A stretch of 64,000 nt of DNA from a virus. The stretch's first letter is position 1; every line of letters starts with the position of its first letter. Of this stretch, positions 28,947 through 49,661 are shown piece by piece. Where the stretch lies: IMG/VR virus record IMGVR_UViG_3300033568_000010, positions 1 through 64,000 of that record. One strand, given 5' to 3'. Under the pieces are notes generated by a model that did not search any database, had not been told where the DNA came from, and saw only the letters and a list, made by a program, of their open reading frames with translations. The translations under genes were made by a program, and so were the position numbers.

Positions 28947-31900
28947 ATGGCGAATATTAAAACTACAGATATTGAAGTAGCCCTTTTTACAGGGACCGAT
29001 CCTTATCGTTATGATGTGGATAATAGACCTCTACGCAACCTTATCCTAAACGATATTGCGATCAATACAGAGCTTGAGACTCTAGTTACAGAAGTTACAA
29101 ATGCGCGTACAGATAACACGGTCACGCCTGCCGTAGAGTACGGAAGCCTTGATGGAAGACTAGAGGCAATTAGTCAAGCTAACGTAGATAACGCTTCCAT
29201 CAACTACTCTCTATTTGAGGGGCTTGCGGAGCTTAAGAGAACTACACATCAGTCAGGGTGGGTGCAGGAACCAAAGAGTAGAGCAATCTACCCAGAGGGA
29301 GCAGCAACTGGTGTAATCAATAATGATATCGGTCTTCTGACCGGGACAGAGTGGGCAGGGGCATACCCCTATCAGATACACATCGTTACGGACTACGCTA
29401 CTGCGATCAGTCCACTTACCACCTATGTAAATGGCTGGCTTGTTAAGCTCTTTAATATTCAAGCAGGTGGAGCAACTGCAGTCCGCAATAACGTAGCAAT
29501 CAAGCTCAGTGCCGCCGCAGCTAGTGGTGGTACTCAGGATTTTATTTTCCTTGAAGTTTGGAACGAAGAGATTCCAGCAGCTACTCCTCTATTCTGGAAG
29601 TATGGTAGCCCTCAGTTTGCTGCCTCTACTTACGGAGAAGGTATCCCTTCTCTCGACAACAACTATACTACAGACCCACTAGACCCGACCGTAGTCCACA
29701 GCATTACACGTCTAGCCAACGGTAACTTCTTACAAGTTCGCCACAGAGTTCGTATTGTAAACAACATCAATCCTGCAGACGACTACACTGGGTTTGGTGG
29801 AGCTAACGCTCTCCTTGCACTAGGTAGGGGCGCTGCTGTGGCTCCTGTTGCGTCATATTCATTCACAAACATGTTCACTGCTCTTAATGACGCAGGACTA
29901 TGGAGAGCAGGTAATGGTGACTCACAGTCCAAGACTGATCTAGGAACGTTTGATGGCTACACTTACGCCATTCCTATTGCAATGGTGCATCGTCGTAACA
30001 CAGGCGACTTCACACAGTCAAACCAGAACGGAACCAAGGTAGTTGGAAATGCTTCCACTGGGTATCGTTCTTCTGGTATCTCTGGTCGCCCAGACAATCT
30101 CTATTACGATTCAATCGACCGTAGTGACTTCATCGATAAGCGTCATTGGGTTGGTGTAACGTCTGCTGAGTATGAGAGGATGCTCCAGCGCTCTCTGTCT
30201 GAAGTTCTACATGGTACTACACGCTTACAGTGGGAGCAGCTTGCGTATGACGCTGGTTCTCTACCTGTCTGGGGTAACCGTGTACTCATGGACGATGTAA
30301 TCTTCTCTGACACTATTTACCCTGCATATGCTTCAGACCCAACGCTGGGGTCGTATGTTAACTACGTTAAGGATAAGAGCCTTGGCGGAACTCCATTCTC
30401 TAAACCAGACGGTGTTAGACGTAGGTTTGACGCATATCCAGAGGCGCAGAAGACTGATTTCGTAGTTAATCCTTTTGCTCTGACGAGCGACCAAACAGTA
30501 GCAGGATTTATAACAATAACAAACACTGGTGGAACAACCAGACTAGTTACCGTAGACCCTACTGTACTGTCTGGTGCTGCAGGAAACAGCGTTACTGCTG
30601 ATACTCCTGCATGGTTCTGGCTGAGTGATAGCAAGAGAATTGACCCTGTGGTTGGCGGAACTCCACAGGCAAGAACCTATACGCTCGATGTAGGTACACG
30701 GGCAAACACTGACCGTGTTCTTTGCTCAGTAGAGATCATGTTCCCCTCAAAGTCTGGTACTAAGTCACTTCCACGAGAGACAGTACAGCAAGAGTTCTTT
30801 GATGGAGTTAACCCACACAAGTCGTTTAGCTCTGGAACAAATTCACCTTACTGGGTAGTAAGAGACACGAGCAATAAGATTTGGGTAGCAGAATACTTTA
30901 CCAGCAAGATTAGCGTATGGGATGAGGCTGCAGACGGGTCTATGACTTTAGACTCAGCAGCAGGTCACTCTATCAGCAGTGCTACTATTGCAGGTGGAGT
31001 CACTAATGCATTTACATACCCAACAAGCGTAGCCGTATACGGTAATCCTTTCGCAGGTGCAGGTAGCGGAGCAGTTTGGGTAGTAGACCATGTAGGTAGA
31101 AAGGTTAAGAAGTACACCTTCAGCGCTGGGGTATGGACTCTAGCGGCTACGATTGAAACCTTTACCTGTCAGGCAGCTACAAGACGGTTTGGATCAGATA
31201 GCGGTGTGGCTTCAGTATATGCACCATACGCTCTTGCGATAACATCTGATGGAGCTAAGCTGTATGTAGTAGACTCACCGCGTCACGTAGTGTACGAGTT
31301 TAATACTGCAGCGCTAGGCACCGCTACAATTTTTGCCGGTGTTCTTGATACTCCCGGTACATCTACTGTTGCCCCCATCAAGTTGAACTACCCAACAGGT
31401 ATTTCAATGGACGGAACTAATGTTGTTATTACAGACGTAAACAACAATAGGTCGTCTATCCTCGATGACAACGGTATCCCAATCACAACGTTTGTTAATA
31501 GTGAGACTGGTGGGTCTTCAATGCCAGCAAACATTACAAGCGGTAGATACGCAATCCTGATAGGAACACCGGGGTCTGCTGATATTAAGTATCTAGTCAC
31601 GGCAGGAGGTGGAGGTACTTCAGACAGGCCTAATACTCTGTTTAAAGTTGATAAAGACTTTAACATTGAGTATGCGTTCTGCCCTTATGCCCCTACATCA
31701 ATTCCAAACATGTTGGGAGGAATTGCAGTAGACAGTCAGACCTCACCAAACTACGTTTGGATAACTAATGACACACAAATTCCAATCACTCCTAACGGTG
31801 GTGGCTGGGTATTAAACTACAGCAACCTATCTGTAAAGTTTGATAGAGCAACAAGTGGGTTTGGTAATACGTTCTCGTTCTCAGACATACAGTATGTACC

Positions 31901-33641
31901 TGCATCTGGGTCAGCACCTGCTAGAATCTTTGCTTCACGAAGACCAGTAGGTGGAGGGGTATCTCAGACTGCTCTATACAGCATCAACGGTGATGGTAGT
32001 GTGGTGTTCTCCAGCTTAACTGCACTACCATCCGGTGTTACTACTTCTGCCTTCACAAGCTACAGCCAGAAGAGAAATATAGCAGGTGTTCATCGCTTCT
32101 ACGAGAGCATCGTAGCTGATGGATACGTACAGAAGATTTATAGGTGGATTGCGTCTGGAAGCAACTGGGTAAGAGACGCAAGCCCTTCAATCACACTATC
32201 ACCGGGGGACTCTCTATACGGTGTTTCTCTTGGACTAGATCAAGATACCAGCGGAAACCTATATTTAACGTTCTCCGGTGTTACTGGTCTAGGTGGCGCA
32301 TCTAACGTAGTCCATCGCTATAAGTGGGATGGAGCTAACTTTGTTGCCCCCGGTGGTGCTGGAAACACGAGTGGTGTGTTTGGTACGGACGGTGTTACAG
32401 GTGGAACGTCTACTACGCTAGCTACTCCTTGGGGCATCTCCGTATCAGAGGATGGTACTGCTCTGTTTGTTGTAGGTAAAACTACAGCTGGATGGAGTGG
32501 TGGAGATGATGGTGGTAGATTCGTACCACTGGGTACCACAGATGCCAAGTGGCTTACAGGGTCAACACCTTATCTAGAAGATGTAGATTATCTAACGGAC
32601 TCTGCTAACCGCCCAAGCACAGTATCAACACCGATCCCCGGTGGTGTGTTTGCTTTGGTTAGTGGACAGGATATGTATATCTTGACAAGTAATCACAAGT
32701 TACTTCACTACAGGATGAGTATCCTCAATAACACAGACAGCTATCAGCTGGCGGGTGAATTTGGTATCTATAATGAGTCAGGGACTGACCACGCTAGACT
32801 AACCTCACCCCTATGCATGATCATGTCTACCGTTAGTGCGGATCGTATGATCATCGCAGATACTGGATCAAACCGTCTACTCTCCATCCACAAAAAGATG
32901 GCTGGTGTATCTTCTTCATCTGGAAACATAAGCACACTCACTAGTTTAGTGGATACAGAGAGACTTAAGCTCTGGACAATTACTTCACCTTACCAAGGAA
33001 TCGGAAGGCAAGTATTTACTGCAGGCGATATTGAGCGTGTATGGTCTACCCAGATCGTGTCTGCTTCAGAGTTTATGTACGTAACGTCTCTAGGTAGAAG
33101 CCCTGTACAGGCAGTAAGCCAGCTAGGTAGCTTAGCTATCAGCCCAGCGGCTGCAGGTGGAGCGATTGATCGTCTTCCACTTGGAGGTAAGGCAAACGGG
33201 TATGACTCATATTCATTTGGTGCTGATCCACTTCAACTATCTAATATCAACGAAGCATACCTGTCTTCTTCCATCCTAAAGATCCCTGTTGCCACCTATA
33301 GCTTAACTGCCTATAAGCCATTCAGAGACGATGCGGGTGAAGACTCACTCTTAGTTCTGGCTAGGTATGACGCCAGCGTTACACAGTTCTATACTACCAG
33401 AGGTATTTCAACTTGGTGGGGAGCGGGGCAAGGTACCTTCTACTCATCATCTACGCCGTTGGCGGTAGCCAAGAATAGAGTGGTATTTATCCCCTATTTA
33501 ATCCGCAGACGAGGAAGAGTCTTCCTAATGATTGTTACCAGCATTGCTACAGGGGTAGCTAACGTACTTGGTAACGTTAATGAAGCTCCAATTAGTGCAA
33601 TGGACATCTACGATGTCCCCGGCAGAATCCTTCTTCGCTAA
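28947..33641 (+). CDS. Giant tail fibre / host-recognition protein with NHL-type beta-propeller repeats
   Basis: 1564 aa. The N-terminus DPYRYDVDNRPLRNLILNDIAIN is a fibre-anchor-type motif. NHL-like blades: YPTGISMDGTNVVITDVNNNRSSILD, PYALAITSDGAKLYVVDSPRHVVYEF, LTSPLCMIMSTVSADRMIIADTGSNRLLSI. Confidence 0.7.
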   Translation: MANIKTTDIEVALFTGTDPYRYDVDNRPLRNLILNDIAINTELETLVTEVTNARTDNTVTPAVEYGSLDGRLEAISQANVDNASINYSLFEGLAELKRTTHQSGWVQEPKSRAIYPEGAATGVINNDIGLLTGTEWAGAYPYQIHIVTDYATAISPLTTYVNGWLVKLFNIQAGGATAVRNNVAIKLSAAAASGGTQDFIFLEVWNEEIPAATPLFWKYGSPQFAASTYGEGIPSLDNNYTTDPLDPTVVHSITRLANGNFLQVRHRVRIVNNINPADDYTGFGGANALLALGRGAAVAPVASYSFTNMFTALNDAGLWRAGNGDSQSKTDLGTFDGYTYAIPIAMVHRRNTGDFTQSNQNGTKVVGNASTGYRSSGISGRPDNLYYDSIDRSDFIDKRHWVGVTSAEYERMLQRSLSEVLHGTTRLQWEQLAYDAGSLPVWGNRVLMDDVIFSDTIYPAYASDPTLGSYVNYVKDKSLGGTPFSKPDGVRRRFDAYPEAQKTDFVVNPFALTSDQTVAGFITITNTGGTTRLVTVDPTVLSGAAGNSVTADTPAWFWLSDSKRIDPVVGGTPQARTYTLDVGTRANTDRVLCSVEIMFPSKSGTKSLPRETVQQEFFDGVNPHKSFSSGTNSPYWVVRDTSNKIWVAEYFTSKISVWDEAADGSMTLDSAAGHSISSATIAGGVTNAFTYPTSVAVYGNPFAGAGSGAVWVVDHVGRKVKKYTFSAGVWTLAATIETFTCQAATRRFGSDSGVASVYAPYALAITSDGAKLYVVDSPRHVVYEFNTAALGTATIFAGVLDTPGTSTVAPIKLNYPTGISMDGTNVVITDVNNNRSSILDDNGIPITTFVNSETGGSSMPANITSGRYAILIGTPGSADIKYLVTAGGGGTSDRPNTLFKVDKDFNIEYAFCPYAPTSIPNMLGGIAVDSQTSPNYVWITNDTQIPITPNGGGWVLNYSNLSVKFDRATSGFGNTFSFSDIQYVPASGSAPARIFASRRPVGGGVSQTALYSINGDGSVVFSSLTALPSGVTTSAFTSYSQKRNIAGVHRFYESIVADGYVQKIYRWIASGSNWVRDASPSITLSPGDSLYGVSLGLDQDTSGNLYLTFSGVTGLGGASNVVHRYKWDGANFVAPGGAGNTSGVFGTDGVTGGTSTTLATPWGISVSEDGTALFVVGKTTAGWSGGDDGGRFVPLGTTDAKWLTGSTPYLEDVDYLTDSANRPSTVSTPIPGGVFALVSGQDMYILTSNHKLLHYRMSILNNTDSYQLAGEFGIYNESGTDHARLTSPLCMIMSTVSADRMIIADTGSNRLLSIHKKMAGVSSSSGNISTLTSLVDTERLKLWTITSPYQGIGRQVFTAGDIERVWSTQIVSASEFMYVTSLGRSPVQAVSQLGSLAISPAAAGGAIDRLPLGGKANGYDSYSFGADPLQLSNINEAYLSSSILKIPVATYSLTAYKPFRDDAGEDSLLVLARYDASVTQFYTTRGISTWWGAGQGTFYSSSTPLAVAKNRVVFIPYLIRRRGRVFLMIVTSIATGVANVLGNVNEAPISAMDIYDVPGRILLR

Positions 33642-37104: not shown

Positions 37105-37125
37105 CAAATCCCCTTCAGGACAACT

Positions 37126-37155
37126 AAGGCCACTGGAAACAGTGGCCTTTTTTAT
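37126..37155 (+). terminator. Strong rho-independent terminator (end of the late/lysis transcription unit)
   Basis: AAGGCCACTG / GAAA / CAGTGGCCTT (10-bp perfect stem, GNRA loop) followed by TTTTTTATTT. Confidence 0.8.
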
Positions 37156-37184
37156 TTGACCCAACATTACAGTTTCATTACAAT
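37156..37184 (+). promoter_or_regulatory. Sigma70/SigA-type promoter
   Basis: TTGACC (37156-37161), 17-nt spacer, TACAAT (37179-37184), directly abutting the terminator. A further TATAAT sits at 37190-37195. Confidence 0.55.
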
Positions 37185-37341
37185 TAGATTATAATTCTGT
37201 AATGTGGGAATATTTTTTTCCTTTCCCCCCTTAACAATCCCCCAGAAGCCCTAATATACTTCGTATATAAAAGAGACAAGAAACGTAGAATAAAGAAACA
37301 TCCTGACAAGAACAAAAAGATAAGTATAGATAAGATATATA

Positions 37342-37356
37342 AAGTATAGTATACTT
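37342..37356. promoter_or_regulatory. 15-bp palindrome (candidate operator)
   Basis: AAGTATA-G-TATACTT. A half-site copy AAGTATAGA lies at 37322-37330. It contains a TATACT -10-like hexamer. Confidence 0.3.
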
Positions 37357-37381
37357 AGTAATAGAGGTAATATTACAAACT

Positions 37382-37660
37382 ATGAACTCCAAAAATTTTG
37401 ATTTTAATTCTCGGCTAAAGCTAGCATTTCTAGCAGTTTACATACTAGTCGTCGGGGTTTCTATCGGTTATCTTGCCTGTCAGGCAAGGGTAGAAGAGGA
37501 AAAGGCCAAGGAAGCGTATCTTTACTTTCGACTAACGAAGTTAGAATCTGATATCCGTTACCTCAACTACGTTGTCGGTGATTCTGTTAAAACCGTTAAC
37601 ACCTTGAATTCCTATCAGGATGATGTAACCTTGGGGTTTAGAAAGGACTCAGTAAAATAG
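37382..37660 (+). CDS. Small early membrane-anchored protein
   Basis: 92 aa with an N-terminal TM segment LAFLAVYILVVGVSIGYLAC, then a coiled coil. SD weak or distant. Confidence 0.45.
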   Translation: MNSKNFDFNSRLKLAFLAVYILVVGVSIGYLACQARVEEEKAKEAYLYFRLTKLESDIRYLNYVVGDSVKTVNTLNSYQDDVTLGFRKDSVK

Positions 37661-37663
37661 TTC

Positions 37664-37692
37664 TTGACAACCGCTCCAGCGGTGGCTATACT
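37664..37692 (+). promoter_or_regulatory. Near-consensus sigma70/SigA promoter driving the gam-like gene
   Basis: TTGACA (37664-37669), 17-nt spacer, TATACT (37687-37692). The ATG is only 9 nt after the -10 hexamer. Confidence 0.65.
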
Positions 37693-37701
37693 TACTCCAT
37701 C

Positions 37702-38214
37702 ATGAACGAAACGAAAACACTCGCTACCAAGTCGGCAGTCAACACTACGTCGTCCATTGACGACGCGATGCTTGAGCTTAGTCTTCTGAAGAAGACCGTG
37801 GCTAAGATTACCGCGAAGTACACTTCGCAGATTGACGAGCTTCGCTTGGCACTAGAGGAAGCTACTACCCCCCTTCGCGAGAAGGCTGACCAGATTGAGG
37901 CCTCCATTCTTCGCACTGCCGCGAAGGAGTGGGATCGTACCTCCATTCGGCAGCAGTACCCCCTAGGGGACGTTAAATGGTCGCTCCCCAAGGGACGACT
38001 TGATTTTACCTTCAACGAAGCTACGACCCTAAAGCTGATCGAAAAGGCAGGGCTTGCTGACCGTCTTATCAAGACGACCAAGTCGGTCAAGAAGAATGAG
38101 GTCAAGGAGCTTCCTGAGAAGCAGCTGATCAAGCTGGGGTGTGAGATCGTCAAGGACGATCCTACTCCTGCCCTTGAGCTTAATTATGAGATGATCATGG
38201 CGCGGATGGAATAG
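37702..38214 (+). CDS. gam: Mu Gam-like (Ku-related) DNA-end-binding host-nuclease inhibitor
   Basis: 170 aa. N-terminal coiled coil, then GDVKWSLPKGRLDF and KLIEKAGLADRLIKTTKSVKKNEV. These align by eye with Mu Gam GDVSWRVRPPSVSI and ETLERLGLQRFIRTKQEINKEAI. Confidence 0.65.
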   Translation: MNETKTLATKSAVNTTSSIDDAMLELSLLKKTVAKITAKYTSQIDELRLALEEATTPLREKADQIEASILRTAAKEWDRTSIRQQYPLGDVKWSLPKGRLDFTFNEATTLKLIEKAGLADRLIKTTKSVKKNEVKELPEKQLIKLGCEIVKDDPTPALELNYEMIMARME

Positions 38215-38271: not shown

Positions 38272-38319
38272 GCTATGGAGACATAGCGGGGCCTACGCAA
38301 GTAGGCCCTTTTACTTTTT
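38272..38319 (+). terminator. Tandem hairpins; the second is a rho-independent terminator
   Basis: GCTATG/GAGA/CATAGC, then GGGCCTAC/GCAA/GTAGGCCC followed by TTTTACTTTTT. Confidence 0.7.
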
Positions 38320-38353
38320 GGAGCGGTAAATCAACGACTTAGTTCAGCAACCA

Positions 38354-38367
38354 CAGGTTGCAACCTG
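38354..38367. promoter_or_regulatory. 14-bp perfect palindrome 7 nt upstream of the start codon
   Basis: CAGGTTG-CAACCTG. The upstream GCAACC (38347-38352) can pair alternatively with GGTTGC. No SD is visible before ATG 38375. Confidence 0.3.
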
Positions 38368-38374
38368 ATAAAGC

Positions 38375-39823
38375 ATGGCTACTCAGTATAAATATCCGCA
38401 GCTAGCGGAAGGTAAAAACGGTGATTGGAAGAAAGAGGGGTATAAGCTAAGCCACTCCTATCGCTCCAATGGTGTTGACGTGTATGTACACTCCAAGGAA
38501 GGTGTTCGTGTTGGAAATCTATCCGCAGACCACTCCTCACGCGCCCCCAATACATTATATGCGCGTGGGGTTGATGTTGAAGACGAGCATCTTAGGAAAG
38601 GCATAGCCACCGCTATGTACGACCATGCCCGTAAAGTCACTGGAAGAAAGTTCGTTACTGGGAGGGATCAGTCTGAGGACGGTAAAGCATTTCGTAGTAA
38701 ATACGACGCAAGAAAGCAAAGTAAACCTGCTGCTGAGCCAGTAGTCGAAGTTAAGCTAGGCGATGCTACCGTCACCTTCGGTGACAGAGCCAAGGCTAGG
38801 TATAAAAAGGTTCATCACTCTATAGACTCCATTCAGCACGAGAAGCCGTTGACCATCCCTTTCCATAGAAAGACATTTCCACCTGCTCCAAACATGGGTG
38901 GTAGGTTTGGGCAGGACGTAGAGCCTCACGGGGAGTACATGTCCTATGGGCATGGAGCTTCCGCCAGCTATGACACCCAGCACGGGGAGAAGCTTATTTC
39001 CAATCAGGTAAATGGAACAGTACGTTTCAAGAAGCCCTACGTAGTTACTGACACTGAAAATTATACATGGAAACACGATCTAGCGTCTAAGCTGGGTAAA
39101 AAAGGTAGATCCCTGTCTACCCACTTGCAAAAGAAGGGCTATGATGGTATTGTGGTTCTTCCATCCAAAGGGAAAGTTCCCACGGAGATGGTAAACCTTA
39201 GTGGGAAGAAGACAGTACATGAGGCGGCAAATTTAAGTGAGCGTGATGGTACCTTTGATTATGCCTCCACTCAGGTGAACTTTCCACGGGGTGCCAGCAA
39301 GATTCATCAGGCATTTGCTTACTCGATAATCGATCCAAACGACCTAGCTTCACATGGGTTTGAGACACAGCCTCATGCAACGCTGAAGTACGGCCTGCAC
39401 CATGATGATCCAGAGCCGCTGAAGCGGCTGCTTGCACATGAGTCACCATTCACCGCTCACTTGGGAGTTACAAAAGTCTTTCCTGCTAACGAACAGCGCC
39501 CAGATAGTGACTGTGTGGTGTTAACTATAGACTCACCTGATATGCACCGTTTGAATCGTAAGATTAAGGAAGCCTACCCGCATACCGACACCTACCCTAC
39601 ATATGATCCGCACTGTACAGTAGCCTATGTCAAGGCGGGTCTAGGTAAGAAGTACGAGGGGCTTCAGCAGATGAAAGGAACACCTATCACATTCAACTCT
39701 GTTGCTTTAAGCAGTAAATCAGGGGAACAGCAGGTGATTCCTTTAGGTCTTCAATCTGTAAGCCCCTCCGCTGCTCAAGACAGAACAGTCGTATTGAAAT
39801 ATAATAAACCTAAGCTAAGTTAG
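38375..39823 (+). CDS. Multidomain protein: small GNAT-like N-terminal segment, unknown middle domain, C-terminal 2H phosphoesterase (LigT/Acb1 fold class)
   Basis: Two H-x-T-x motifs (PHATLKYG and PHCTVAYV) about 80 aa apart. The N-terminus VDVEDEHLRKGIATAMYDHA is GNAT-motif-A-like. The middle has RFGQDVEPHGEYM and KKGYDGIVVL. Confidence 0.6.
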   Translation: MATQYKYPQLAEGKNGDWKKEGYKLSHSYRSNGVDVYVHSKEGVRVGNLSADHSSRAPNTLYARGVDVEDEHLRKGIATAMYDHARKVTGRKFVTGRDQSEDGKAFRSKYDARKQSKPAAEPVVEVKLGDATVTFGDRAKARYKKVHHSIDSIQHEKPLTIPFHRKTFPPAPNMGGRFGQDVEPHGEYMSYGHGASASYDTQHGEKLISNQVNGTVRFKKPYVVTDTENYTWKHDLASKLGKKGRSLSTHLQKKGYDGIVVLPSKGKVPTEMVNLSGKKTVHEAANLSERDGTFDYASTQVNFPRGASKIHQAFAYSIIDPNDLASHGFETQPHATLKYGLHHDDPEPLKRLLAHESPFTAHLGVTKVFPANEQRPDSDCVVLTIDSPDMHRLNRKIKEAYPHTDTYPTYDPHCTVAYVKAGLGKKYEGLQQMKGTPITFNSVALSSKSGEQQVIPLGLQSVSPSAAQDRTVVLKYNKPKLS

Positions 39824-39832
39824 CCCTACTGC

Positions 39833-41320
39833 TTGAAACTTAAAATTGGAAATTTATACGTAGAGCCTTCAGGCTCATCTGACGAGATACGCACTCTCCA
39901 GACACTACTCACCGTAAAAAACCCTAAAGCAAAATTTGCAAAGAGCCGCTGGAACCAGAAGGAACCAGTAAATCTTTATTTCTTTGATGAAGAGGGTAGG
40001 TTTTTACGTGGGCTGCTGCCTTGGGTGCAGGAAGGGCTTGCCTCTGCAGGTATCATCCCTGAATTATTGATTTTTAAGGAAGAGACATTTGACTTCCACG
40101 AGTGCCCCGTAGACCTATTAACAACTCCGCTCCGAGACTATCAAAAAGAAGCCGTAGAACAGGCGTTCTACTGGCGTAGAGGCGTTGTACAGGTTGCTAC
40201 GGGTGGTGGGAAGACCCTGATCATCGCTGCGGTTAACAAGCTCGTAGAAGACGTTTACAAGGGTACTACGTTAACCTTCGTAAATAAGATCCACTTGATG
40301 CACCAGACTGTAGAACGGTTCAGGCAGTATGGACTTAAGAATGTCGGATACTTGGGTGCCGGTGAGTATGAAGAGGGGAGGCACATGGTTGTTATGGTGC
40401 AGACCGCTCAGAAGCTTGCTAAAAAAGGAGAAGTTGACTTTCTTAATGTGACCTGTGTCAACTTTGATGAAACGCATCACTTGGGGGCAAAGTCTTGGTC
40501 TAAGTTGGCTGTGAGTGCAGAGGCAGCTAAGTTCTCTCTAGGCTACTCTGGTACTCCCTTTAGACAGGGAGAACTGAACTACTACGACCCTGAAGACATC
40601 CAGTTACTAGGTCTTACTGGCGGTGTGATTGTAAGGGTATCAGCTTCCTATTTGATTAGAGAAGGCTATCTTGCCAGACCATACATCTTTATGATACCTT
40701 GTGAGGAAGCGACTACTTACCCTGAAAATGATAGTAGCTGGCAGGATGTAGAGAAAGCCTTTATTGTAGAAAATGGGTATCGAAATAATTTAATAGCTAG
40801 ACTAGCTAAAACATTAACAGATCGCGGAATGAACCCCTTGCTTCTTGTCAGCAAGATTGAGCATGGAAGGCTTTTGCTCTTAGAGCTTGACAAACTAGGG
40901 ATGCGTCCGCTATTCTTGAGTGGAGGTCCAACACGGCATGAAATACTCATGGGTGAAGTTGTTTCTTATGAAGATGAGGATGCAGATGCATCCATCAACG
41001 AATACCTTGAGGGTACCTTTAACGTACTCATAGGCTCTACCGTATTTGACGAAGGTGTGGACCTACCTGCAGTTTCTGCCATGATCAACTGTGCAGGTGG
41101 AAAAGCATTTATTAAAAATCTTCAAAGAGTTGGTCGTCCATTGCGCCCCAAAGCAGATGGTCCGAATGAGGCGTATATCTTTGATTTTTGGGACTTTACA
41201 CACAAGTGGTTACTAAAACATTCAGGAGAACGAGCAGACGACTATAGGACCGAGGAGGAATTCGTAGTCTACGACGACGGTTACTCCGCATCAACAGAGT
41301 TTTTCAGCGAAGAGTGGTAA
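39833..41320 (+). CDS. SF2 DExH helicase, T4 UvsW-like
   Basis: VATGGGKT (Walker A), FDETHH (DExH), GYSGTPFR. The C-terminus LLKHSGERADDYRTEEEF parallels T4 UvsW LLKHGIDRIQRYADEKF. TTG start. Confidence 0.75.
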   Translation: MKLKIGNLYVEPSGSSDEIRTLQTLLTVKNPKAKFAKSRWNQKEPVNLYFFDEEGRFLRGLLPWVQEGLASAGIIPELLIFKEETFDFHECPVDLLTTPLRDYQKEAVEQAFYWRRGVVQVATGGGKTLIIAAVNKLVEDVYKGTTLTFVNKIHLMHQTVERFRQYGLKNVGYLGAGEYEEGRHMVVMVQTAQKLAKKGEVDFLNVTCVNFDETHHLGAKSWSKLAVSAEAAKFSLGYSGTPFRQGELNYYDPEDIQLLGLTGGVIVRVSASYLIREGYLARPYIFMIPCEEATTYPENDSSWQDVEKAFIVENGYRNNLIARLAKTLTDRGMNPLLLVSKIEHGRLLLLELDKLGMRPLFLSGGPTRHEILMGEVVSYEDEDADASINEYLEGTFNVLIGSTVFDEGVDLPAVSAMINCAGGKAFIKNLQRVGRPLRPKADGPNEAYIFDFWDFTHKWLLKHSGERADDYRTEEEFVVYDDGYSASTEFFSEEW

Positions 41321-41343
41321 CATATCGATAAAAAGGAAGATCA

Positions 41344-43182
41344 ATGGGTTCAGCACTACCAACACAGTTCAAACCACTACCAAAAACTACACAACAGACA
41401 ACTACAAGTGATGCAGCACCAAAGACAACAGTAATTTCCACTGCCCCTGCAGGGTACGCCCCTGTGGTAACACCTCCCCCACCTATGCTGGCAGTGAGCC
41501 AGCCAGCACCAGTTACACACGAGCGCAAGTTCCCTTTCGGAGCTACTTTTCAGTTAAAGGCACTTGCCATCATCCTAAGAACTCCTAATGTCCTTCATGA
41601 CTACTGTAAGGATATTAAGGCTGCGTATTTTGAAGATCCTGTGCTGCAGAATCTTTTCCGCATTATTCAGGCTTACTACTTTACTTACAAGGTGGCCCCA
41701 ACGGAGTCTGCCCTGTTAGAAGAGATTAAGGTGGACGCAAAGAAGCTGGGATTTTCCGATGAGTTTATCGGAGGTCTAGCTGCAGTTGCACACGAGATTT
41801 GCACGTCAGTAGAAATTGATGAGGCGGATTACATTCAGGATAGAATGGTGAGCTTCATTAAGTTCCGTCGCGCACTAGAGGTAACGCTTAAGATGGCGGA
41901 TCTAGTGGATAAGATGGACACCCACGGTCAGGGTGACTTTGATCAGGTACTTCCACTCATCCGCGAGCTAAACGCCATTGGGAGTAAAGGAACACAGGGG
42001 TATGACTTTGCGGATAACGTAGCAACTCTGTCTGACCAGCTTCGCAACTCAGACATTTATAGCTCTGCGATGAAGGTGCCTATCGGAATTAAGAAGTTCG
42101 ATCATATCCTCGACGGAGGCCTAGGTGCTGGTGAAATTGCATTTATTGTAGCTGGTGCCGGTGTTGGCAAGAGTAGTTTGCTGCTTAACACTGCTATTGC
42201 AGCACAACAGGCAGGTGTTAATGTTCTTGTCGTTACGATGGAGCTAAAAGAAAGCGATTATGCCCTTCGTGCTGCACAGCGTTATGCTGGAGTGTCTAAA
42301 GAGCATGTGCTCTATAACTCAATGCGGTATCAGGATCGTATGCCTACGGTTATAAGCATGGCAAATAAAGCAAAGCTGATCTTCAAATACTTTCCACCGG
42401 GACGTTGTTCCGTAGATTCACTGCGGTCTTATTTCTCGCAGCTTCTTACACAGGAAGAGAACCAAGGGCAGTGGCTTGTGATTATTGACTACCTAGAGAA
42501 GATGAAGATGGGTGGTGATGATCGTAGAAATAACCGTGAAGACTGGGCTTTGATTGGAGATACAGTCAATGAACTGATTGCCTTTGGTCACGAGTTTAAT
42601 GTGCCTATCTTCTCCGCGTCACAGACAACACGGTCTGGTTATGCTAAGGTAGCTCGTAGTAAGGGAACAAAGCATACAGATAAGGATGACATTGGTGCTT
42701 CTTGGAAGAAGGTAGAGCATGCTGACGTAATCCTTGCGTTTGATCAGTCTGAGATTGAAAAGGCAGCAGGTGTTGCAAGGCTACGGGCACTCAAGGTGCG
42801 TCGAGGCAAGGACGGTATTTCGGTTAGGATTAAGGATAACCGCCCAACAATGACCTTCGTTGAAATGGAAGGTGATATCACTGACGCAACGATGACGCTC
42901 AGTCCTGTAATGGAGTATAGCCCTCGCCGTGACGGCGAACTGCTTGTGCTTCACAATAACTATGATAACATCACTCCTTATGAGGATGAGTCACTAGATG
43001 GTCTTATTCGTCCTCCACAGGTTGACATCGAAGACTATCTTGAGGATCAGATTAATTCACTATCCAGCGAGCGTGACGAGATGGATATTGACGTTGTTGC
43101 TAACGAACAGCGTCAGAGAGCAGCAAACATGCATATGACCGCAGGAGGGGTCCAGCAGCTAGTTAGGAGTAAGCTTGAATAG
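41344..43182 (+). CDS. DnaB-family replicative helicase with a Pro/Thr-rich N-terminal extension
   Basis: GLGAGEIAFIVAGAGVGKSSLLLN (Walker A) and VIIDYLEKM. SD AAGGAAG upstream. Confidence 0.8.
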   Translation: MGSALPTQFKPLPKTTQQTTTSDAAPKTTVISTAPAGYAPVVTPPPPMLAVSQPAPVTHERKFPFGATFQLKALAIILRTPNVLHDYCKDIKAAYFEDPVLQNLFRIIQAYYFTYKVAPTESALLEEIKVDAKKLGFSDEFIGGLAAVAHEICTSVEIDEADYIQDRMVSFIKFRRALEVTLKMADLVDKMDTHGQGDFDQVLPLIRELNAIGSKGTQGYDFADNVATLSDQLRNSDIYSSAMKVPIGIKKFDHILDGGLGAGEIAFIVAGAGVGKSSLLLNTAIAAQQAGVNVLVVTMELKESDYALRAAQRYAGVSKEHVLYNSMRYQDRMPTVISMANKAKLIFKYFPPGRCSVDSLRSYFSQLLTQEENQGQWLVIIDYLEKMKMGGDDRRNNREDWALIGDTVNELIAFGHEFNVPIFSASQTTRSGYAKVARSKGTKHTDKDDIGASWKKVEHADVILAFDQSEIEKAAGVARLRALKVRRGKDGISVRIKDNRPTMTFVEMEGDITDATMTLSPVMEYSPRRDGELLVLHNNYDNITPYEDESLDGLIRPPQVDIEDYLEDQINSLSSERDEMDIDVVANEQRQRAANMHMTAGGVQQLVRSKLE

Positions 43183-44275
43183 CTATGAACTAGAGCTACA
43201 GTTGAATAATGTCCTTGGAGTAGGCACAGACCACGGGGACAATATTTCATACAATTGTCCTTTTTGCGAAGGCAAGGGCAAGTCGGAAGACACTGAAGAG
43301 AAGCTGTGGGTAAACCTAGAAAAGCTAGTATTCATTTGTTATAGGTGTGAGACACAGGGATCACTAAAATACCTGTTTACTAGATTAAACCTTACAATAG
43401 AAGACTCCGTAAGGCTGAAGGACTTTTATTCACGCATAGCATCGTTGAGAGGTATTGAAGTAAAAGAGGAGGTGGAACCAGCGTCTACTGATGTCATCGT
43501 AGATGACTATGTTCCACACCTGATGGAGGAGAGATGTATTCCTGTAAGCACAGACAGCCCCGGCTGGGGGTACCTGCGTAGCAGGGGGTTGAGCAAGGAA
43601 GATCTTGATTTTTATCAGTTTGCAGAAGGTGGAGAGCGGGGGAGATACCGAAACAGGGTTATTGTTCCTACCTTTGACTTCACTGAAAGTAAGGTTAAAT
43701 TTTTTGTGGCAAGGGCTTATTTACCTGTTTTCTTCTATAAGAAAGGTGTTAAGAAGGAAGCTCCTAAGTATTTAAATCCAAGAGGTAAAAATAGATCTTT
43801 AACCTTATTTAACCTGTGGAAGGCTTTAGACGTTTCGTCTACGGAAATTGTAATTACCGAGGGAGTGTTCAGTGCAATAGGTGCAGGTAAAAACGCAGTA
43901 GCTACGTATGGAAAGCTTGTTGCTGACACACAGGTAAATTTGCTTGCAAAAAATATAGGCAGTAGAGAGGCTATTGTAGCACTAGACGGTGATGCCCATG
44001 AGCAGGCACTTGAGTTGTGTGGTAGACTTAAGCTCGCTGGAGTAAATGTAGTAAGCATGGTTACTCTTCCCTATGGGGAAGACCCTGACTCATTGCGATC
44101 TGTATTTTCGCGCTACGTCGCAGAAAGAACACCAGCGGACGACATTAGTATGCTAAAATTAAGAACAAGTGGGGCATTGTGCGTGGGCAAACCGCATAGC
44201 CAGCACACTACTCTACCTGTGAATGTAGAAAGTCTACACACTAAAATACTAAACATAATTTCAAGAAATAAATAA
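43175..44275 (+). CDS. DNA primase (zinc finger + TOPRIM)
   Basis: CPFCEGKG...CYRCETQG zinc ribbon. ITEGVFSAI and ALDGDAHE are TOPRIM motifs. TTG start overlaps the helicase stop. Confidence 0.7.
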   Translation: MNSYELELQLNNVLGVGTDHGDNISYNCPFCEGKGKSEDTEEKLWVNLEKLVFICYRCETQGSLKYLFTRLNLTIEDSVRLKDFYSRIASLRGIEVKEEVEPASTDVIVDDYVPHLMEERCIPVSTDSPGWGYLRSRGLSKEDLDFYQFAEGGERGRYRNRVIVPTFDFTESKVKFFVARAYLPVFFYKKGVKKEAPKYLNPRGKNRSLTLFNLWKALDVSSTEIVITEGVFSAIGAGKNAVATYGKLVADTQVNLLAKNIGSREAIVALDGDAHEQALELCGRLKLAGVNVVSMVTLPYGEDPDSLRSVFSRYVAERTPADDISMLKLRTSGALCVGKPHSQHTTLPVNVESLHTKILNIISRNK

Positions 44276-44286
44276 GGAGCGTACAT

Positions 44287-44976
44287 ATGGGAACCTTAAG
44301 AGAAGCAACAACACAATTAAGCAAAGTAAGTAAAAACGAAGGGTTTACTTTAGAGGACAGAGAAAATTTAAACTCAGCGCTGTCTAAGCTGGTAGCGCTA
44401 TGTAATATATATCGTTACGAGGCAGGTATAGGGGGCGACATTAGTTTTACACTTTCAGAGGGGGAAGCTGAGAGCGGAAGTTTAACTGCAGGTAAGTTTT
44501 TTATTTGTGCATATTCTCCTGTGATAGATGGTGTAGAGTATTCCATTGAAAATGAAGACGCTATTTTAGTAAGTAATGAAAATAGTAGTGGCATTGTTGA
44601 GATGACAGGGATACCCAGTGGTGTTACGTATAAAATATATTGTAGTCTAGTTGATCAGCCAGCTGATGCTCCTTACTCAAATTTTGTATATGCTGGAAGC
44701 CTAACAGAGGATGGTACCCTAACAATAGAAAGTGTTCCAGTGAGTGGTGCCGCTCCCACTCCCCGCGAAGACGAAGATATTATTCCAGATGAAACTACCT
44801 ATGCTAAAGTGCAAGAGGCTGCACATTACACAGCTATGGCAGCATATGCCAGCACTGGAACCTTAAACAGAGCAACTAATAATGTTCTAGAAGAGGTAAA
44901 AACAGAAAATGAGTATGTAAATCTTGCCTACTCTGCTGCAAGTGCCGTAATAGCGCTGCAGCTTGCCAATGCATAG
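44287..44976 (+). CDS. Hypothetical protein
   Basis: 229-aa ORF with TAAGGAG SD, lying between the primase and polymerase genes. Confidence 0.55.
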   Translation: MGTLREATTQLSKVSKNEGFTLEDRENLNSALSKLVALCNIYRYEAGIGGDISFTLSEGEAESGSLTAGKFFICAYSPVIDGVEYSIENEDAILVSNENSSGIVEMTGIPSGVTYKIYCSLVDQPADAPYSNFVYAGSLTEDGTLTIESVPVSGAAPTPREDEDIIPDETTYAKVQEAAHYTAMAAYASTGTLNRATNNVLEEVKTENEYVNLAYSAASAVIALQLANA

Positions 44977-45071
44977 AAAATTAATTTTATTGGGTGAAAT
45001 AAACCACAACTTTACACAGTTTAGCACTGTGTTGGTAGATGAGTGATCTCCTTTCTTGTTAGTTGTAAATG

Positions 45072-45098
45072 GAGGCCAGCAGTGACCCTGCTGGCCTC
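45072..45098 (+). terminator. 11-bp perfect hairpin (possible terminator, weak U-tract)
   Basis: GAGGCCAGCAG / tgacc / CTGCTGGCCTC followed by tatcattt. Confidence 0.45.
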
Positions 45099-45120
45099 TA
45101 TCATTTAAATTGGAGGATTT

Positions 45121-49639: not shown

Positions 49640-49661
49640 GGGGGCATCTTCGGATGCCCCC
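49640..49661 (+). terminator. 9-bp GC-rich hairpin with a UUCG loop downstream of the SSB gene
   Basis: GGGGGCATC / TTCG / GATGCCCCC followed by GTTTCTGT. Confidence 0.5.

What the first reader, a model, noticed from the sequence alone, without database searches (positions are those of the whole stretch)
38375..39823. Early multidomain protein ending in a 2H phosphoesterase: candidate cyclic-nucleotide/RNA-end enzyme (possible anti-defence)
The C-terminal ~150 aa carry two H-x-T-x motifs (HATL and HCTV), the hallmark of the 2H phosphoesterase superfamily. That superfamily includes LigT 2'-5' RNA ligases, cyclic phosphodiesterases and the phage anti-CBASS nuclease Acb1.

Here the domain is fused to a GNAT-like segment and an unrecognised middle domain (RFGQDVEPHGEYM, KKGYDGIVVL). 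The gene sits in the first early genes, next to a nuclease-inhibitor cassette.

It has no visible SD, and a 14-bp palindrome lies 7 nt before the ATG. The fusion architecture is not one I recognise.
Basis: partly seen in the sequence, partly recalled or inferred. Interest (0 to 1): 0.65.

Follow-up and report, generated by a model that had tools for sequence, protein, structure and literature searches.

The report
Three-enzyme phage counter-defence fusion protein
This phage gene encodes one 482-residue protein that joins a small acetyltransferase, a divergent ADP-ribosyltransferase-like domain and an Acb1-like 2H phosphodiesterase; all three modules are known from the giant "polyvalent" anti-host proteins of phages, so it is an unusually compact member of a class already described computationally.

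Summary

**C-terminal module.** Residues ~294-465 form a genuine 2H phosphoesterase:
- Pfam PF13563 scores above its cut-off.
- The HxT motifs lie at residues 334-337 and 413-416.
- The model has pLDDT 88, and all 50 top PDB fold matches are 2H enzymes.
- By sequence profile, the closest solved relatives are the phage cyclic-oligonucleotide phosphodiesterases PDE-9 and Acb1.

**N-terminal module.** It belongs to a family of ~110-aa mini-GNATs.

**Middle domain.**
- The family is remotely related to ART-PolyVal ADP-ribosyltransferases.
- An Arg probably stands where ART-PolyVal has its catalytic His.

**Class.** This 2H version occurs mostly inside 1,000-6,000-aa polyvalent proteins. GNAT-ART, ART-2H and GNAT-2H pairings all recur in those proteins. 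Iyer et al. (2017) described the class and predicted that its 2H domains degrade nucleotide signals.

**What is unusual.**
- The compact three-module form has no full-length homologue in the databases searched.
- The gene heads the replication operon rather than sitting among virion genes.

**Not supported.** The palindrome is real but occurs at chance frequency. "Early" expression is not shown.

**Verdict.** New member of a known kind, moderate interest.

The parts
38375..39823 (+). Complete ORF, 482 aa plus stop: three-module protein (mini-GNAT, ART-like domain, 2H phosphodiesterase)
   Evidence: The ORF is listed. No full-length homologue was found in 5.8 billion clustered proteins or in 1.84 billion representatives.
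38399..38710 (+). Module 1, residues ~9-112: minimal GNAT-type acetyltransferase domain, with motif A-like LRKGIATAM at residues 73-81
   Evidence: The window protein itself scores only weakly against Pfam GNAT models (PF00583, 14.2 bits, below the cut-off). It aligns to P0258 residues 327-394 (26 bits) and 941-1043 (54 bits). Pfam scores P0258 residues 322-393 as GNAT, E=1.5e-12. A profile search finds 47 small proteins of ~105-130 aa, 20 of which carry PF00583 or PF13508. The lead-in GKNGDWKKEGYK is conserved in P0258 and in L001.
38711..38842 (+). Linker, residues ~113-156, Lys/Ala-rich and modelled with low confidence
   Evidence: pLDDT is 47-57 over model residues 1-30, which correspond to protein residues 121-150. 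Only P0127 aligns to this stretch.
38843..39220 (+). Module 2, residues ~157-282: ART-fold-like domain distantly related to ART-PolyVal. Conserved residues are R164, Q180, E183, Y188, K233, D257 (in GYDG) and E271.
   Evidence: A profile search finds 186 relatives, mostly solo proteins of ~150 aa with no Pfam domain. The AF2 model has pLDDT 80 overall and above 90 in the core. Foldseek against BFVD returns ART-PolyVal-like proteins at E=2e-4 to 1e-3 and a Gordonia phage protein at 4e-9. The PDB top hits are tankyrase/PARP, RES and ParT, but they are weak (E 0.03-0.5, TM ~0.3). An ART-PolyVal HMM built here hits residues 183-272 at 19.3 bits. hhalign gives 95.6% in global mode and 87% in local mode.
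39254..39769 (+). Module 3, residues ~294-465: 2H phosphoesterase of the version found in polyvalent proteins, closest to phage PDE-9/Acb1
   Evidence: PF13563 E=2.9e-10, and Acb1 PF23474 at 23.9 bits. It is 42-51% identical to 2H modules inside giant proteins. A profile search against PDB sequences gives 9q2g at E=6e-8 and 7t26 at E=5e-4. The model has pLDDT 88. All 50 top Foldseek PDB hits are 2H enzymes.
39374..39385 (+). First catalytic motif, H334-A-T336-L
   Evidence: The motif is read directly from the sequence. H and T are invariant in alignments A6 and A8.
39611..39622 (+). Second catalytic motif, H413-C-T415-V, within YDPHCTVAY
   Evidence: The motif is read directly from the sequence. 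It aligns to YNAHLTLAY of PDE-9 and YRPHITLSY of FBB1 Acb1.
39770..39820 (+). C-terminal tail, residues 466-482, modelled with low confidence; possibly a lid, by analogy with Acb1
   Evidence: pLDDT is 51-57 over the last 20 residues of the model. The lid role is an inference from the Acb1 and PDE-9 literature.
38354..38367 (.). Perfect 14-bp palindrome CAGGTTGCAACCTG, ending 7 nt before the ATG
   Evidence: Its position and symmetry are verified. It occurs once in the window. Its frequency class is at chance level. Its function is unknown.
38288..38309 (+). Intrinsic terminator (9-bp stem, 6 G-C pairs, T tract) that closes the Gam transcription unit
37702..38214 (+). Upstream neighbour: Mu Gam-like DNA-end-protection protein, preceded by the best sigma-70-like promoter in the region (37664-37692, 11 of 12 matches)
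39833..44976 (+). Downstream genes that are probably co-transcribed: SF2 helicase, DnaB-like helicase, primase and a 229-aa ORF
   Evidence: The gaps between genes are -8 to 23 nt. No strong intergenic terminator occurs before 45069.

Best explanation
The gene encodes a compact polyvalent-type effector: three separately folding enzyme modules that the phage uses against its host, joined in one polypeptide.

**Shown**
- The C-terminal module is a 2H phosphoesterase with an intact HxT/HxT tetrad. It belongs to the version that populates giant phage polyvalent proteins. Its nearest solved relatives by sequence are the phage phosphodiesterases PDE-9 and Acb1.
- The N-terminal module belongs to a mini-GNAT family.
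- The middle module belongs to a large phage family with no Pfam model that is remotely homologous to ART-PolyVal ADP-ribosyltransferases.

**Inferred**
- The 2H module cleaves 3'-5' or 2'-5' phosphodiester bonds by metal-independent acid-base catalysis through a 2',3'-cyclic phosphate intermediate.
- Its most likely substrates are host immune nucleotide signals: CBASS cyclic di- and trinucleotides, and possibly type III CRISPR cyclic oligoadenylates. Destroying them would blunt abortive-infection defences.
- The ART-like and GNAT modules act in parallel on host proteins or nucleotides, by NAD+-dependent ADP-ribosylation and by acetylation.
- The gene heads the helicase-DnaB-primase unit and is not linked to MuF, portal or terminase genes. 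The protein is therefore probably made after infection together with the replication proteins, rather than injected from the virion.
For: **2H module**
- Identity.
- Affinity to Acb1 and PDE-9: Pfam Acb1 at 23.9 bits. A profile search against PDB sequences gives 9q2g at E=6e-8 and 7t26 at E=5e-4, ahead of every LigT-type entry.
- The motif Y-x-P-H-x-T-[LV]-[AS]-Y is shared with Acb1 and PDE-9.
- PDE-9 and T4 Acb1 are experimentally shown to be broad cyclic-oligonucleotide phosphodiesterases.

**Polyvalent context**
- Of 147 top relatives of the 2H module, 108 are longer than 1,000 aa.
- These carry ART-PolyVal, Zeta toxin, DUF3990, His_Phos_1 and similar domains.

**Module pairings recur independently**
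- ART-type domain with 2H in 11 of 147 proteins; the GNAT family with 2H in P0142 and P0217; GNAT followed by the middle module in P0258.
- P0258 probably also has a 2H unit directly upstream of that pair.

**Published descriptions**
- Iyer et al. 2017 describe this 2H version, note that it never accompanies RNA ligases, and predict that it degrades nucleotide signals. They also describe GNAT-ART adjacency.

**Genomic setting**
- Operon context.
Against: - No activity was or could be tested here.
- The window protein scores below Pfam's Acb1 cut-off (23.9 against 27).
- Structure does not separate branches. Usb1 (E=3e-6), PDE-9 (1.6e-5), a LigT-like protein (2.4e-5), Acb1 (2.7e-5) and CPDase (3.9e-5) are nearly tied.
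- Doherty et al. found that two structural groups of viral 2H enzymes were inactive on all 18 messengers tested. Substrate cannot therefore be read from the fold.
- The ART link is remote. Pfam's ART-PolyVal model does not detect the window domain, and the PDB fold matches are weak.
- The proposed catalytic His is replaced by Arg, so the middle module may bind rather than catalyse.
- The GNAT module is short (~105 aa).
- Typical polyvalent proteins sit with virion genes, and this one does not.
- The host, and therefore its defence systems, are unknown.
Confidence: 0.55

Rival explanations
1. RNA-end healing enzyme. The 2H module opens 2',3'-cyclic phosphate ends left on tRNA or mRNA by host anticodon nucleases or toxin RNases. 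The ART-like module acts like KptA/Tpt1 and removes the resulting 2'-phosphate by transfer to NAD+. The 2H module then also hydrolyses the ADP-ribose 1'',2''-cyclic phosphate by-product.
For: - 2H and ART-fold enzymes cooperate in exactly this way in known RNA repair pathways (Iyer et al. 2022, PMC9503650).
- The plant ADP-ribose>p cyclic phosphodiesterase 1fsi/1jh6 is among the profile and fold matches.
- LigT-like enzymes are close fold matches.
Against: - The middle module relates to the HYD2/ART-PolyVal clade, not to KptA.
- No RNA ligase or polynucleotide kinase was found among the annotated genes of the window. Only 64 kb of a 164-kb genome is visible, however.
- Iyer et al. report that this 2H version never associates with RNA ligases.
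- By sequence profile the module is closer to Acb1 and PDE-9 than to LigT.
Confidence: 0.13
2. Offensive RNase. The 2H module works like Usb1/Mpn1 as a 3'-5' exoribonuclease or endoribonuclease that trims or degrades host RNAs and leaves cyclic-phosphate ends. The ART-like and GNAT modules modify the host translation or transcription machinery as part of host takeover.
For: - Human Usb1 is the top structural match (4h7w at E=3e-6, 6d2z at 5e-6).
- Iyer et al. 2017 list a Usb1-like RNase role as one of two predictions for this 2H version. They base it on architectures parallel to those of the PBECR RNase domains.
Against: - No Usb1 entry appears in the sequence-profile search at E<=1, whereas Acb1-type entries do.
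- The Foldseek E-values of Usb1, PDE-9 and Acb1 differ by less than tenfold, and Acb1 has the highest target-normalised TM-score (0.72).
Confidence: 0.12
3. One coupled pathway on NAD+- or ADP-ribose-derived small molecules. The three modules act in sequence on a single NAD+-derived immune signal or metabolite, for example Thoeris-type cyclic ADPR isomers or ADP-ribose cyclic phosphates. The steps would be binding or transfer by the R-Y-D ART-like module, ring opening by 2H, and acetylation by the GNAT.
For: - All three module types touch ADP-ribose chemistry in known systems.
- The three modules are probably contiguous, in a different order, in an unrelated 1,291-aa protein, P0258.
- The middle-module family conserves a distinct set of polar residues.
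Against: - Co-occurrence is far from obligatory. Only 11 of 147 proteins with this 2H version carry an ART-type domain, and only 2 carry this GNAT.
- Each module also occurs widely as a solo protein.
- The 2H unit of P0258 is supported by only 10.6 bits.
Confidence: 0.1
4. A partly degenerate fusion. Only the 2H module is an enzyme. The short GNAT and the His-to-Arg ART-like module are non-catalytic binding or scaffolding domains.
For: - The window GNAT scores below the Pfam cut-offs, and its motif A begins with Leu instead of Arg or Gln.
- Arg replaces the strand-1 His in the hhalign register.
Against: - Both families keep strongly conserved polar residues across many divergent members.
- Arg at the strand-1 position is the normal NAD+-binding residue of R-S-E ARTs. 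This rests on established knowledge of the ART superfamily and on Iyer 2017.
Confidence: 0.1

Closest known systems
Polyvalent proteins of phages and conjugative elements (Iyer, Burroughs, Anand, de Souza, Aravind 2017, J Bacteriol; PMC5512222)
   Same: - Several unrelated effector domains sit in one polypeptide.
- The 2H module is 42-51% identical to 2H modules inside 1,000-6,000-aa proteins that also carry ART-PolyVal, Zeta toxin, DUF3990 and similar domains.
- GNAT-ART adjacency and the signal-degrading 2H hypothesis are both described there.
   Different: - It has only three modules in 482 aa.
- It has no MuF, portal or metallopeptidase module.
- It lies at the head of the replication operon rather than among head and packaging genes. 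Virion delivery is therefore not indicated.
Acb1 (T4 gp57B, Erwinia phage FBB1; PDB 7T26/7T27) and 2H PDE-9 of Burkholderia phage BCSR5 (PDB 9Q2G/9Q2Y)
   Same: - 2H fold, HxT/HxT tetrad and the Y-x-P-H-x-T-L/V-A/S-Y context.
- These are the best solved relatives by sequence profile (E=6e-8 and 5e-4) and are among the top fold matches.
   Different: - Acb1 and PDE-9 are solo proteins of 150-165 aa with a terminal lid. Here the domain is the C-terminal third of a fusion.
- The domain scores below the Pfam Acb1 cut-off.
- It carries a conserved N-terminal S-T-Q-V-x-L-P strand typical of the polyvalent version.
- Its substrate range is untested.
ART-PolyVal (PF18760; Tox-ART-HYD2 clade)
   Same: - The two families match by profile-profile comparison (hhalign 95.6% global, 87% local).
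- The motifs xKNPxVV and KGYDGIV are shared.
- The ART-PolyVal-like hits in BFVD are significant.
- The domain partners are the same: GNAT and 2H.
   Different: - The Pfam model does not detect the window domain.
- The family's conserved Arg (R164) stands where ART-PolyVal has His, giving R-Y-D instead of H-Y-D. This rests on a low-confidence part of the alignment.
- Most members are solo ~150-aa proteins.
Multidomain viral 2H phosphodiesterases in Doherty et al. 2025 (bioRxiv 10.1101/2025.08.21.671373)
   Same: Thirteen of the 75 viral 2H phosphodiesterases they found carry extra domains, including acetyltransferases.
   Different: The one acetyltransferase-containing example found in their supplement also has HAD and acylase domains. 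No ART-like module is listed.
LigT / 2'-5' RNA ligase-type 2H enzymes and plant CPDase
   Same: They share the same superfamily and fold.
   Different: - Their sequence-profile scores are lower than those of Acb1-type entries.
- No RNA ligase or kinase partner is present in the window.

Membership tests
2H phosphoesterase superfamily | Two H-x-T/S motifs about 70-90 residues apart | tested here: met
   HATL at residues 334-337 and HCTV at 413-416. H and T are invariant across relatives.
2H phosphoesterase superfamily | Profile match above the curated threshold | tested here: met
   PF13563 at 40.8 bits against a cut-off of 27.
2H phosphoesterase superfamily | Internally duplicated 2H fold | tested here: met
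   The model has pLDDT 88. All 50 top PDB matches are 2H enzymes, and 41 of them have E<=1e-3.
Acb1 family (PF23474, anti-CBASS nuclease) | Profile match above Pfam's gathering score | tested here: not met
   23.9 bits against a cut-off of 27. A sister module in P0132 reaches 30.7 bits.
Acb1 family (PF23474, anti-CBASS nuclease) | Closer to Acb1-type structures than to other 2H branches | tested here: inconclusive
   Closer by sequence profile: 9q2g at E=6e-8 and 7t26 at 5e-4, with LigT absent. Not resolved by fold: Usb1, PDE-9, LigT-like, Acb1 and CPDase fall within about tenfold of one another.
Acb1 family (PF23474, anti-CBASS nuclease) | Flexible terminal lid with an aromatic residue, and aromatic base-stacking residues | tested here: inconclusive
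   A 17-residue low-confidence C-terminal tail contains Y478. The aromatic residue three positions before the second His is conserved. The other Acb1 contact residues could not be mapped.
Acb1 family (PF23474, anti-CBASS nuclease) | [quoted passage not shown] | not testable with these tools
   This needs biochemical and phage-infection assays.
Polyvalent proteins (Iyer et al. 2017) | Two or more unrelated effector-type domains in one polypeptide, with modules shared with other polyvalent proteins | tested here: met
   Three modules, each found inside proteins of 1,000-6,000 aa.
Polyvalent proteins (Iyer et al. 2017) | Signs of delivery with the DNA: fusion to MuF, portal or vRNAP, or a position among head and packaging genes | tested here: not met
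   No such module is present. The gene lies between the Gam unit and the replication genes. Relatives do show the feature: P0005 is a portal-family (PF06381) fusion, and the solo middle-module gene P0021 lies next to the terminase.
ART-PolyVal (PF18760) | Match to the Pfam model | tested here: not met
   No hit even at E<=10. Only 2 of 123 family members match at E<=1. For P0004, one of the two, the hit lies in a different region of the protein.
ART-PolyVal (PF18760) | Remote homology by profile methods | tested here: met
   The middle-module HMM hits P0199 at 418-494 and P0196 at 915-1014, regions that Pfam calls ART-PolyVal. The ART HMM hits the window protein at 19.3 bits. hhalign gives 95.6% global and 87% local.
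ART-PolyVal (PF18760) | ART fold | tested here: inconclusive
   The ART-PolyVal-like hits in BFVD have E=2e-4 to 1e-3. The PDB hits are uniformly ART-fold proteins (tankyrase, PARP, RES, ParT), but with E=0.03-0.5 and TM about 0.3.
ART-PolyVal (PF18760) | H (strand 1), Y (strand 2), D (strand 5) active site | tested here: not met
   Y188 and D257 are conserved. The strand-1 position aligns to the conserved Arg R164 rather than to His, in a low-confidence part of the global hhalign alignment.
GNAT acetyltransferases | Profile match above threshold | tested here: inconclusive
   The window protein scores 14.2 bits against a cut-off of 20.7. Its homologue segment in P0258 scores E=1.5e-12. Twenty of 47 family members carry PF00583 or PF13508.
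GNAT acetyltransferases | Motif A, Q/R-x-x-G-x-G/A (acetyl-CoA pyrophosphate loop) | tested here: inconclusive
   The window protein has L-R-K-G-I-A. The paralogous copies in P0258 have R-R-K-G-L-A and Q-R-K-G-L-A.
LigT-type RNA repair 2H | Genomic or physical association with an RNA ligase or polynucleotide kinase | tested here: not met
   None was found among the annotated window genes. The rest of the 164-kb genome was not seen.

The most novel reading that the evidence does not exclude
The three modules are not independent weapons. They would form a self-contained pathway on one NAD+- or ADP-ribose-derived substrate.
- The ART-like module, with its unusual R-Y-D active site, would bind or transfer.
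- The 2H module would open a cyclic phosphate or cyclic nucleotide.
- The mini-GNAT would cap the product.

The protein would be made together with the replication proteins rather than injected. It would then define a new enzymatic route for destroying a host immune signal, and a new catalytic class of ART-fold domains.
Probability: 0.1. Interest if true: 0.75.

Novelty: new member of a known kind. Interest (0 to 1): 0.4.

Why it matters
**A tractable model.** Polyvalent proteins have been described almost only computationally, and their size of 1,000-6,000 aa makes them hard to study. A soluble-sized 482-aa protein that carries three of their typical modules, including an Acb1-like phosphodiesterase, would be a workable model. 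It would let one test two questions:
- Do these modules act independently or in concert?
- Does the polyvalent-type 2H domain really degrade immune nucleotide signals, as predicted in 2017?

**A family needing annotation.** The middle-module family has more than 180 members, no Pfam model, and every source-named member found is labelled "hypothetical". It deserves annotation as an ART-PolyVal-related family with a probable Arg-for-His active-site change.

Tried and rejected
**Searches that found nothing**
1. A nucleotide search of the 6-kb region against 50,697 phage genomes gave no match. The phage has no close cultured relative; its DNA polymerase is about 25% identical to those of SPO1-like Bacillus phages.
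2. An exact-sequence look-up of the protein's source contig found nothing on record.
3. NCBIfam gave no match. PADLOC gave only a meaningless PP2C hit at E=0.015.
4. A search for motifs shared between the 38310-38374 leader and other intergenic regions found only scattered 9-mers with one mismatch. No sigma-70-like promoter lies between the terminator and the ATG.

**Methods that failed**

5. The full-length alignment for structure prediction (A7) was discarded. MAFFT stacked the GNAT and middle-module solos onto the 2H region. The modules were therefore modelled separately. The GNAT module and the inter-domain arrangement were not modelled.
6. The repeat finder with its default extension did not report the palindrome. 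A direct check confirmed it.

**Ideas rejected**

7. The palindrome as an operator or regulatory hairpin: it occurs once, its frequency is at chance level, and the leader fold has z=-1.0.
8. An alternative downstream start codon: the conserved GKNGDWKKEGYK lead-in at residues 13-24 matches homologues, so the ATG at 38375 is kept.
9. Gene context of solo modules gave no consistent three-gene neighbourhood.
Full report
**Observation.** The ORF at 38375-39823 (+ strand, ATG start, 482 aa) exists as described.
- The two H-x-T-x motifs are HATL at residues 334-337 (nt 39374-39385) and HCTV at residues 413-416 (nt 39611-39622). The quoted middle-domain peptides are also present.
- The motifs are not a chance pattern. 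Pfam 2_5_RNA_ligase2 (PF13563) scores 40.8 bits against a cut-off of 27 (E=2.9e-10). The Acb1 model PF23474 scores 23.9 bits, just under its cut-off of 27. PHROG 755 ('RNA ligase') scores E=2e-12.
- CAGGTTGCAACCTG at 38354-38367 is a perfect 14-bp palindrome ending 7 nt before the ATG. No AGGAG-like SD is present, although most genes in the window have one.
- The palindrome occurs only once. Three perfect 14-mers occur in the window against about 4 expected. The leader does not fold better than shuffles (z=-1.0). I give the palindrome no weight.

**Genomic setting.** The window comes from a contractile-tailed phage.
- Tail sheath, tape measure, baseplate hub and wedge genes lie between 5.5 and 27 kb.
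- The protein's cluster entry gives a longest contig of 163,760 bp.
- No annotated phage is similar at the DNA level. The DNA polymerase is only about 25% identical to those of SPO1-like Bacillus phages. Lineage and host are therefore unknown.
- Upstream of the target lies a short region rich in sigma-70-like promoters and bracketed by strong terminators (37126-37149 and 38288-38309). It contains a Mu Gam-like end-protection gene at 37702-38214.
- The target gene follows the second terminator. No recognisable sigma-70 promoter lies in the 65 nt between terminator and ATG.
- Downstream, with gaps of -8 to 23 nt, come an SF2 helicase, a DnaB-like helicase, a primase and a 229-aa ORF. No strong intergenic terminator occurs before 45069.
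- Further downstream are a DNA polymerase, a UvsX-like recombinase, an exonuclease, a dNMP kinase, an endonuclease VII-like protein, an SbcCD-like protein, a dUTPase and a ribonucleotide reductase.
- The gene thus most likely heads the replication transcription unit. 'Next to a nuclease inhibitor' is right. 'Early' is plausible but not shown.

**The protein is modular.** A word-indexed search of 5.8 billion proteins found no full-length relative and only five partial ones.
- P0002, P0003 and P0005 share only the C-terminal module. P0005 is a fusion to a portal-family protein (PF06381).
- P0004 and P0006 share only the middle module.
- An exhaustive HMMER search of 1.84 billion representatives gave 4,914 hits. 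Again none was full-length.

**C-terminal module (residues ~294-465).**
- Of the 147 listed proteins that carry it, 108 are longer than 1,000 aa, with a median of 2,065 aa. Only 9 are under 300 aa.
- The window module is 42-51% identical to these. It shares their conserved S-T-Q-V-x-L-P, H-x-T-V-K-Y-G-L, D-S-P-D-L-H-R-L-N and T-Y-x-P-H-x-T-x-A-Y blocks.
- The host proteins carry ART-PolyVal, DUF3990, Zeta toxin, His_Phos_1, DUF4236, HATPase and similar domains. They are therefore 'polyvalent proteins' in the sense of Iyer et al. 2017.
- That paper has a section on exactly this 2H version. It notes that the version never accompanies RNA ligases. It predicts either a Usb1-like RNase role or degradation of 2'-5' oligoadenylate and cyclic-nucleotide defence signals. 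It also notes fusions to MuF and portal domains.
- A profile of the module searched against PDB sequences gives Acb1-annotated entries first: 9q2g at E=6e-8, 9q2y at 3e-6, and 7t26 at 5e-4. The plant CPDase appears at 1e-4 as two weak pieces. No LigT entry appears below E=0.01.
- 9Q2G and 9Q2Y are '2H PDE-9' of Burkholderia phage BCSR5. It is placed with T4 Acb1 in structural group 3 and is shown to degrade 3'3'-cGAMP and other messengers.
- An AlphaFold model of residues 283-482 is confident (pLDDT 88). All 50 top PDB matches are 2H enzymes.
- The branches are not separated by structure: Usb1 3e-6, PDE-9 1.6e-5, Thermus LigT-like 2.4e-5, Acb1 2.7e-5 (highest target-normalised TM, 0.72), CPDase 3.9e-5.
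- The fold and superfamily are therefore certain. The Acb1/PDE-9 affinity rests on sequence. The substrate is inferred.

**N-terminal module (residues ~9-112).**
- On its own it scores only weakly against GNAT models.
- It aligns to two segments of the 1,291-aa protein P0258. Pfam scores one of these (residues 322-393) as GNAT at E=1.5e-12.
- A profile of the three copies retrieves 47 small proteins of about 105-130 aa. Twenty of them carry PF00583 or PF13508.
- The motif-A loop is L-R-K-G-I-A here, and R/Q-R-K-G-L-A in the P0258 copies.
- The conserved lead-in L-x-x-G-x-N-G-D-W-K-K-E-G-Y-K begins at residue 9. It recurs in P0258 and in a 992-aa multidomain protein of viral contig L001. This supports the annotated start codon.

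**Middle module (residues ~157-282).**
- A three-sequence profile retrieves 186 relatives. Nearly all are solo proteins of 105-230 aa, none has a Pfam domain, and every member named by a source is called 'hypothetical'.
- A model built on 123 sequences is confident in the core (pLDDT 80 overall, above 90 for most of residues 160-280).
- Against viral predicted structures it matches a Gordonia phage protein (4e-9), large multidomain proteins, and proteins annotated ART-PolyVal-like (2e-4, 1.2e-3 and several more).
- Against the PDB the hits are weak (E=0.03-0.5, TM about 0.3). They are nonetheless uniformly ADP-ribosyltransferase-fold proteins: tankyrases, PARPs, RES toxin and ParT.
- Pfam's ART-PolyVal model does not see the family. 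Three other tests do link the two families:
  - An HMM of the family hits P0199 at 418-494 (E=1.5e-5) and P0196 at 915-1014 (E=0.01). Both lie inside regions that Pfam scores as ART-PolyVal at about 5e-16 and 4e-16.
  - An ART-PolyVal HMM built from nine such segments hits the window protein at residues 183-272 (19.3 bits).
  - hhalign gives 95.6% (global, E=4e-9) and 87% (local, E=4e-6).
- Iyer et al. define the ART-PolyVal active site as H (strand 1), Y (strand 2) and D (strand 5).
- Here Y188 (in GEY) lies in a strand of the model. D257 (in GYDG) lies immediately before a strand and is invariant or nearly so in the family. The strand-1 position aligns to the conserved Arg, R164.
- That part of the alignment has low confidence, so 'R-Y-D' is a hypothesis.

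**Do the modules belong together?**
- Pairings recur in unrelated proteins:
  - an ART-type domain with 2H in 11 of 147 proteins, directly adjacent in P0196 and P0199;
  - the same GNAT family with 2H in P0142 and P0217, adjacent in P0217;
  - GNAT immediately followed by the middle module in P0258.
- P0258 also has an HVTH...PHVTV segment just upstream of that pair (residues 778 and 861). It scores weakly against the 2H profile (10.6 bits). P0258 may therefore carry all three modules contiguously in a different order.
- Iyer et al. state that one GNAT family of polyvalent proteins typically neighbours the ART domain.
- Doherty et al. note that 13 of 75 viral 2H phosphodiesterases carry extra domains, acetyltransferases among them.
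- Against obligatory coupling, each module is far more often found alone or with other partners. This is the shuffling pattern expected of independently acting effectors.
- Solo middle-module genes lie beside packaging and virion genes. P0021 lies directly upstream of the terminase. The homologue in podovirus MW202647 is the C-terminus of a 960-aa protein, encoded among several large unannotated ORFs upstream of the lysis genes. This fits the virion-delivery logic proposed for the class.
- The window gene differs on this point, since it sits with replication genes.

**Mechanism.** The best-supported reading (confidence about 0.55) is a compact polyvalent-type counter-defence effector.
- The 2H module uses H334/T336 and H413/T415 for metal-independent cleavage through a 2',3'-cyclic phosphate intermediate, as established for Acb1. 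Its most probable substrates are host cyclic oligonucleotide signals.
- The ART-like and GNAT modules modify host targets in parallel.
- Shown: the domain identities, the intact catalytic residues, and membership of the polyvalent 2H version.
- Inferred: the substrates, the catalytic competence of the other two modules, the expression timing, and the absence of packaging.
- The rivals are:
  - RNA-end healing with a KptA-like role for the ART module (about 0.13). Against it are the ART clade and the absence of ligase or kinase partners.
  - A Usb1-like offensive RNase (about 0.12). For it is the top fold match; against it is the sequence profile.
  - A single coupled NAD+/ADP-ribose pathway (about 0.10).
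  - A partly degenerate fusion in which only 2H is catalytic (about 0.10).

**Novelty and interest.**
- The class, the 2H version, the GNAT-ART adjacency and the signal-degradation idea have all been published.
- New here:
  - this exact three-module, 482-aa architecture, which has no full-length homologue in the databases searched;
  - its position at the head of the replication operon;
  - recognition that a large unannotated solo family is an ART-PolyVal relative with a probable Arg-for-His change.
- I rate it a new member of a known kind, with moderate interest (0.4). Its main value is as a tractable experimental model for polyvalent proteins.

Noticed in passing
window 37105-37701: A dense cluster of sigma-70-like promoters (37156-37260, 37327-37355, and 37664-37692 with 11 of 12 matches) lies between two strong terminators (37126-37149 and 38288-38309). 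The cluster drives a 92-aa ORF and the Gam-like gene, and it looks like a host-RNAP-dependent early unit.
   Followed up: partly
window 53045-56056: A single 1,003-aa ORF matches an SbcD-like nuclease over residues 1-265 and an SbcC-like ATPase over residues 358-1001. This is an apparent SbcD-SbcC fusion.
   Followed up: no
window 28947-33641: A 1,564-aa ORF at the end of the tail module has no PHROG match at E<=1e-5. The 817-aa ORF at 16980-19433 also has none.
   Followed up: no
window 39833 (TTG start of the helicase ORF): The SF2 helicase ORF begins at a TTG 9 nt after the target gene's stop codon and has no SD. Either the two genes are translationally coupled, or the true start lies further downstream.
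   Followed up: no
L001 5698-8676 (IMGVR_UViG_3300047457_001340): A 992-aa multidomain protein carries the same mini-GNAT followed by a protein-kinase-like segment (GSGHQGHVYQ...VVKVSK). Short K-S-E-E-L-E-K-G-type linker motifs recur between its modules and might be processing sites.
   Followed up: no
P0258 (1,291 aa): It contains two copies of the mini-GNAT, one middle module and a probable divergent 2H unit (HVTH at 778, PHVTV at 861). It may therefore carry all three module types in the order 2H-GNAT-ART-like.
   Followed up: partly
P0004 residues 240-415: The 425-aa relative carries the middle module and then a second, different ART-like region (LYRAG...VFATTS) that Pfam scores weakly as ART-PolyVal (E=5e-4). 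Two ART-type domains thus sit in tandem.
   Followed up: no
P0003 (304 aa): The same 2H version is fused to a nucleoside 2-deoxyribosyltransferase-like domain (PF15891). This is another small two-module combination.
   Followed up: no
window 45069-45101 and 49640-49661: Long G+C-rich stem-loops (14 and 9 pairs) lie in the intergenic regions before the DNA polymerase and UvsX-like genes. They probably mark transcription-unit boundaries within the replication module.
   Followed up: no
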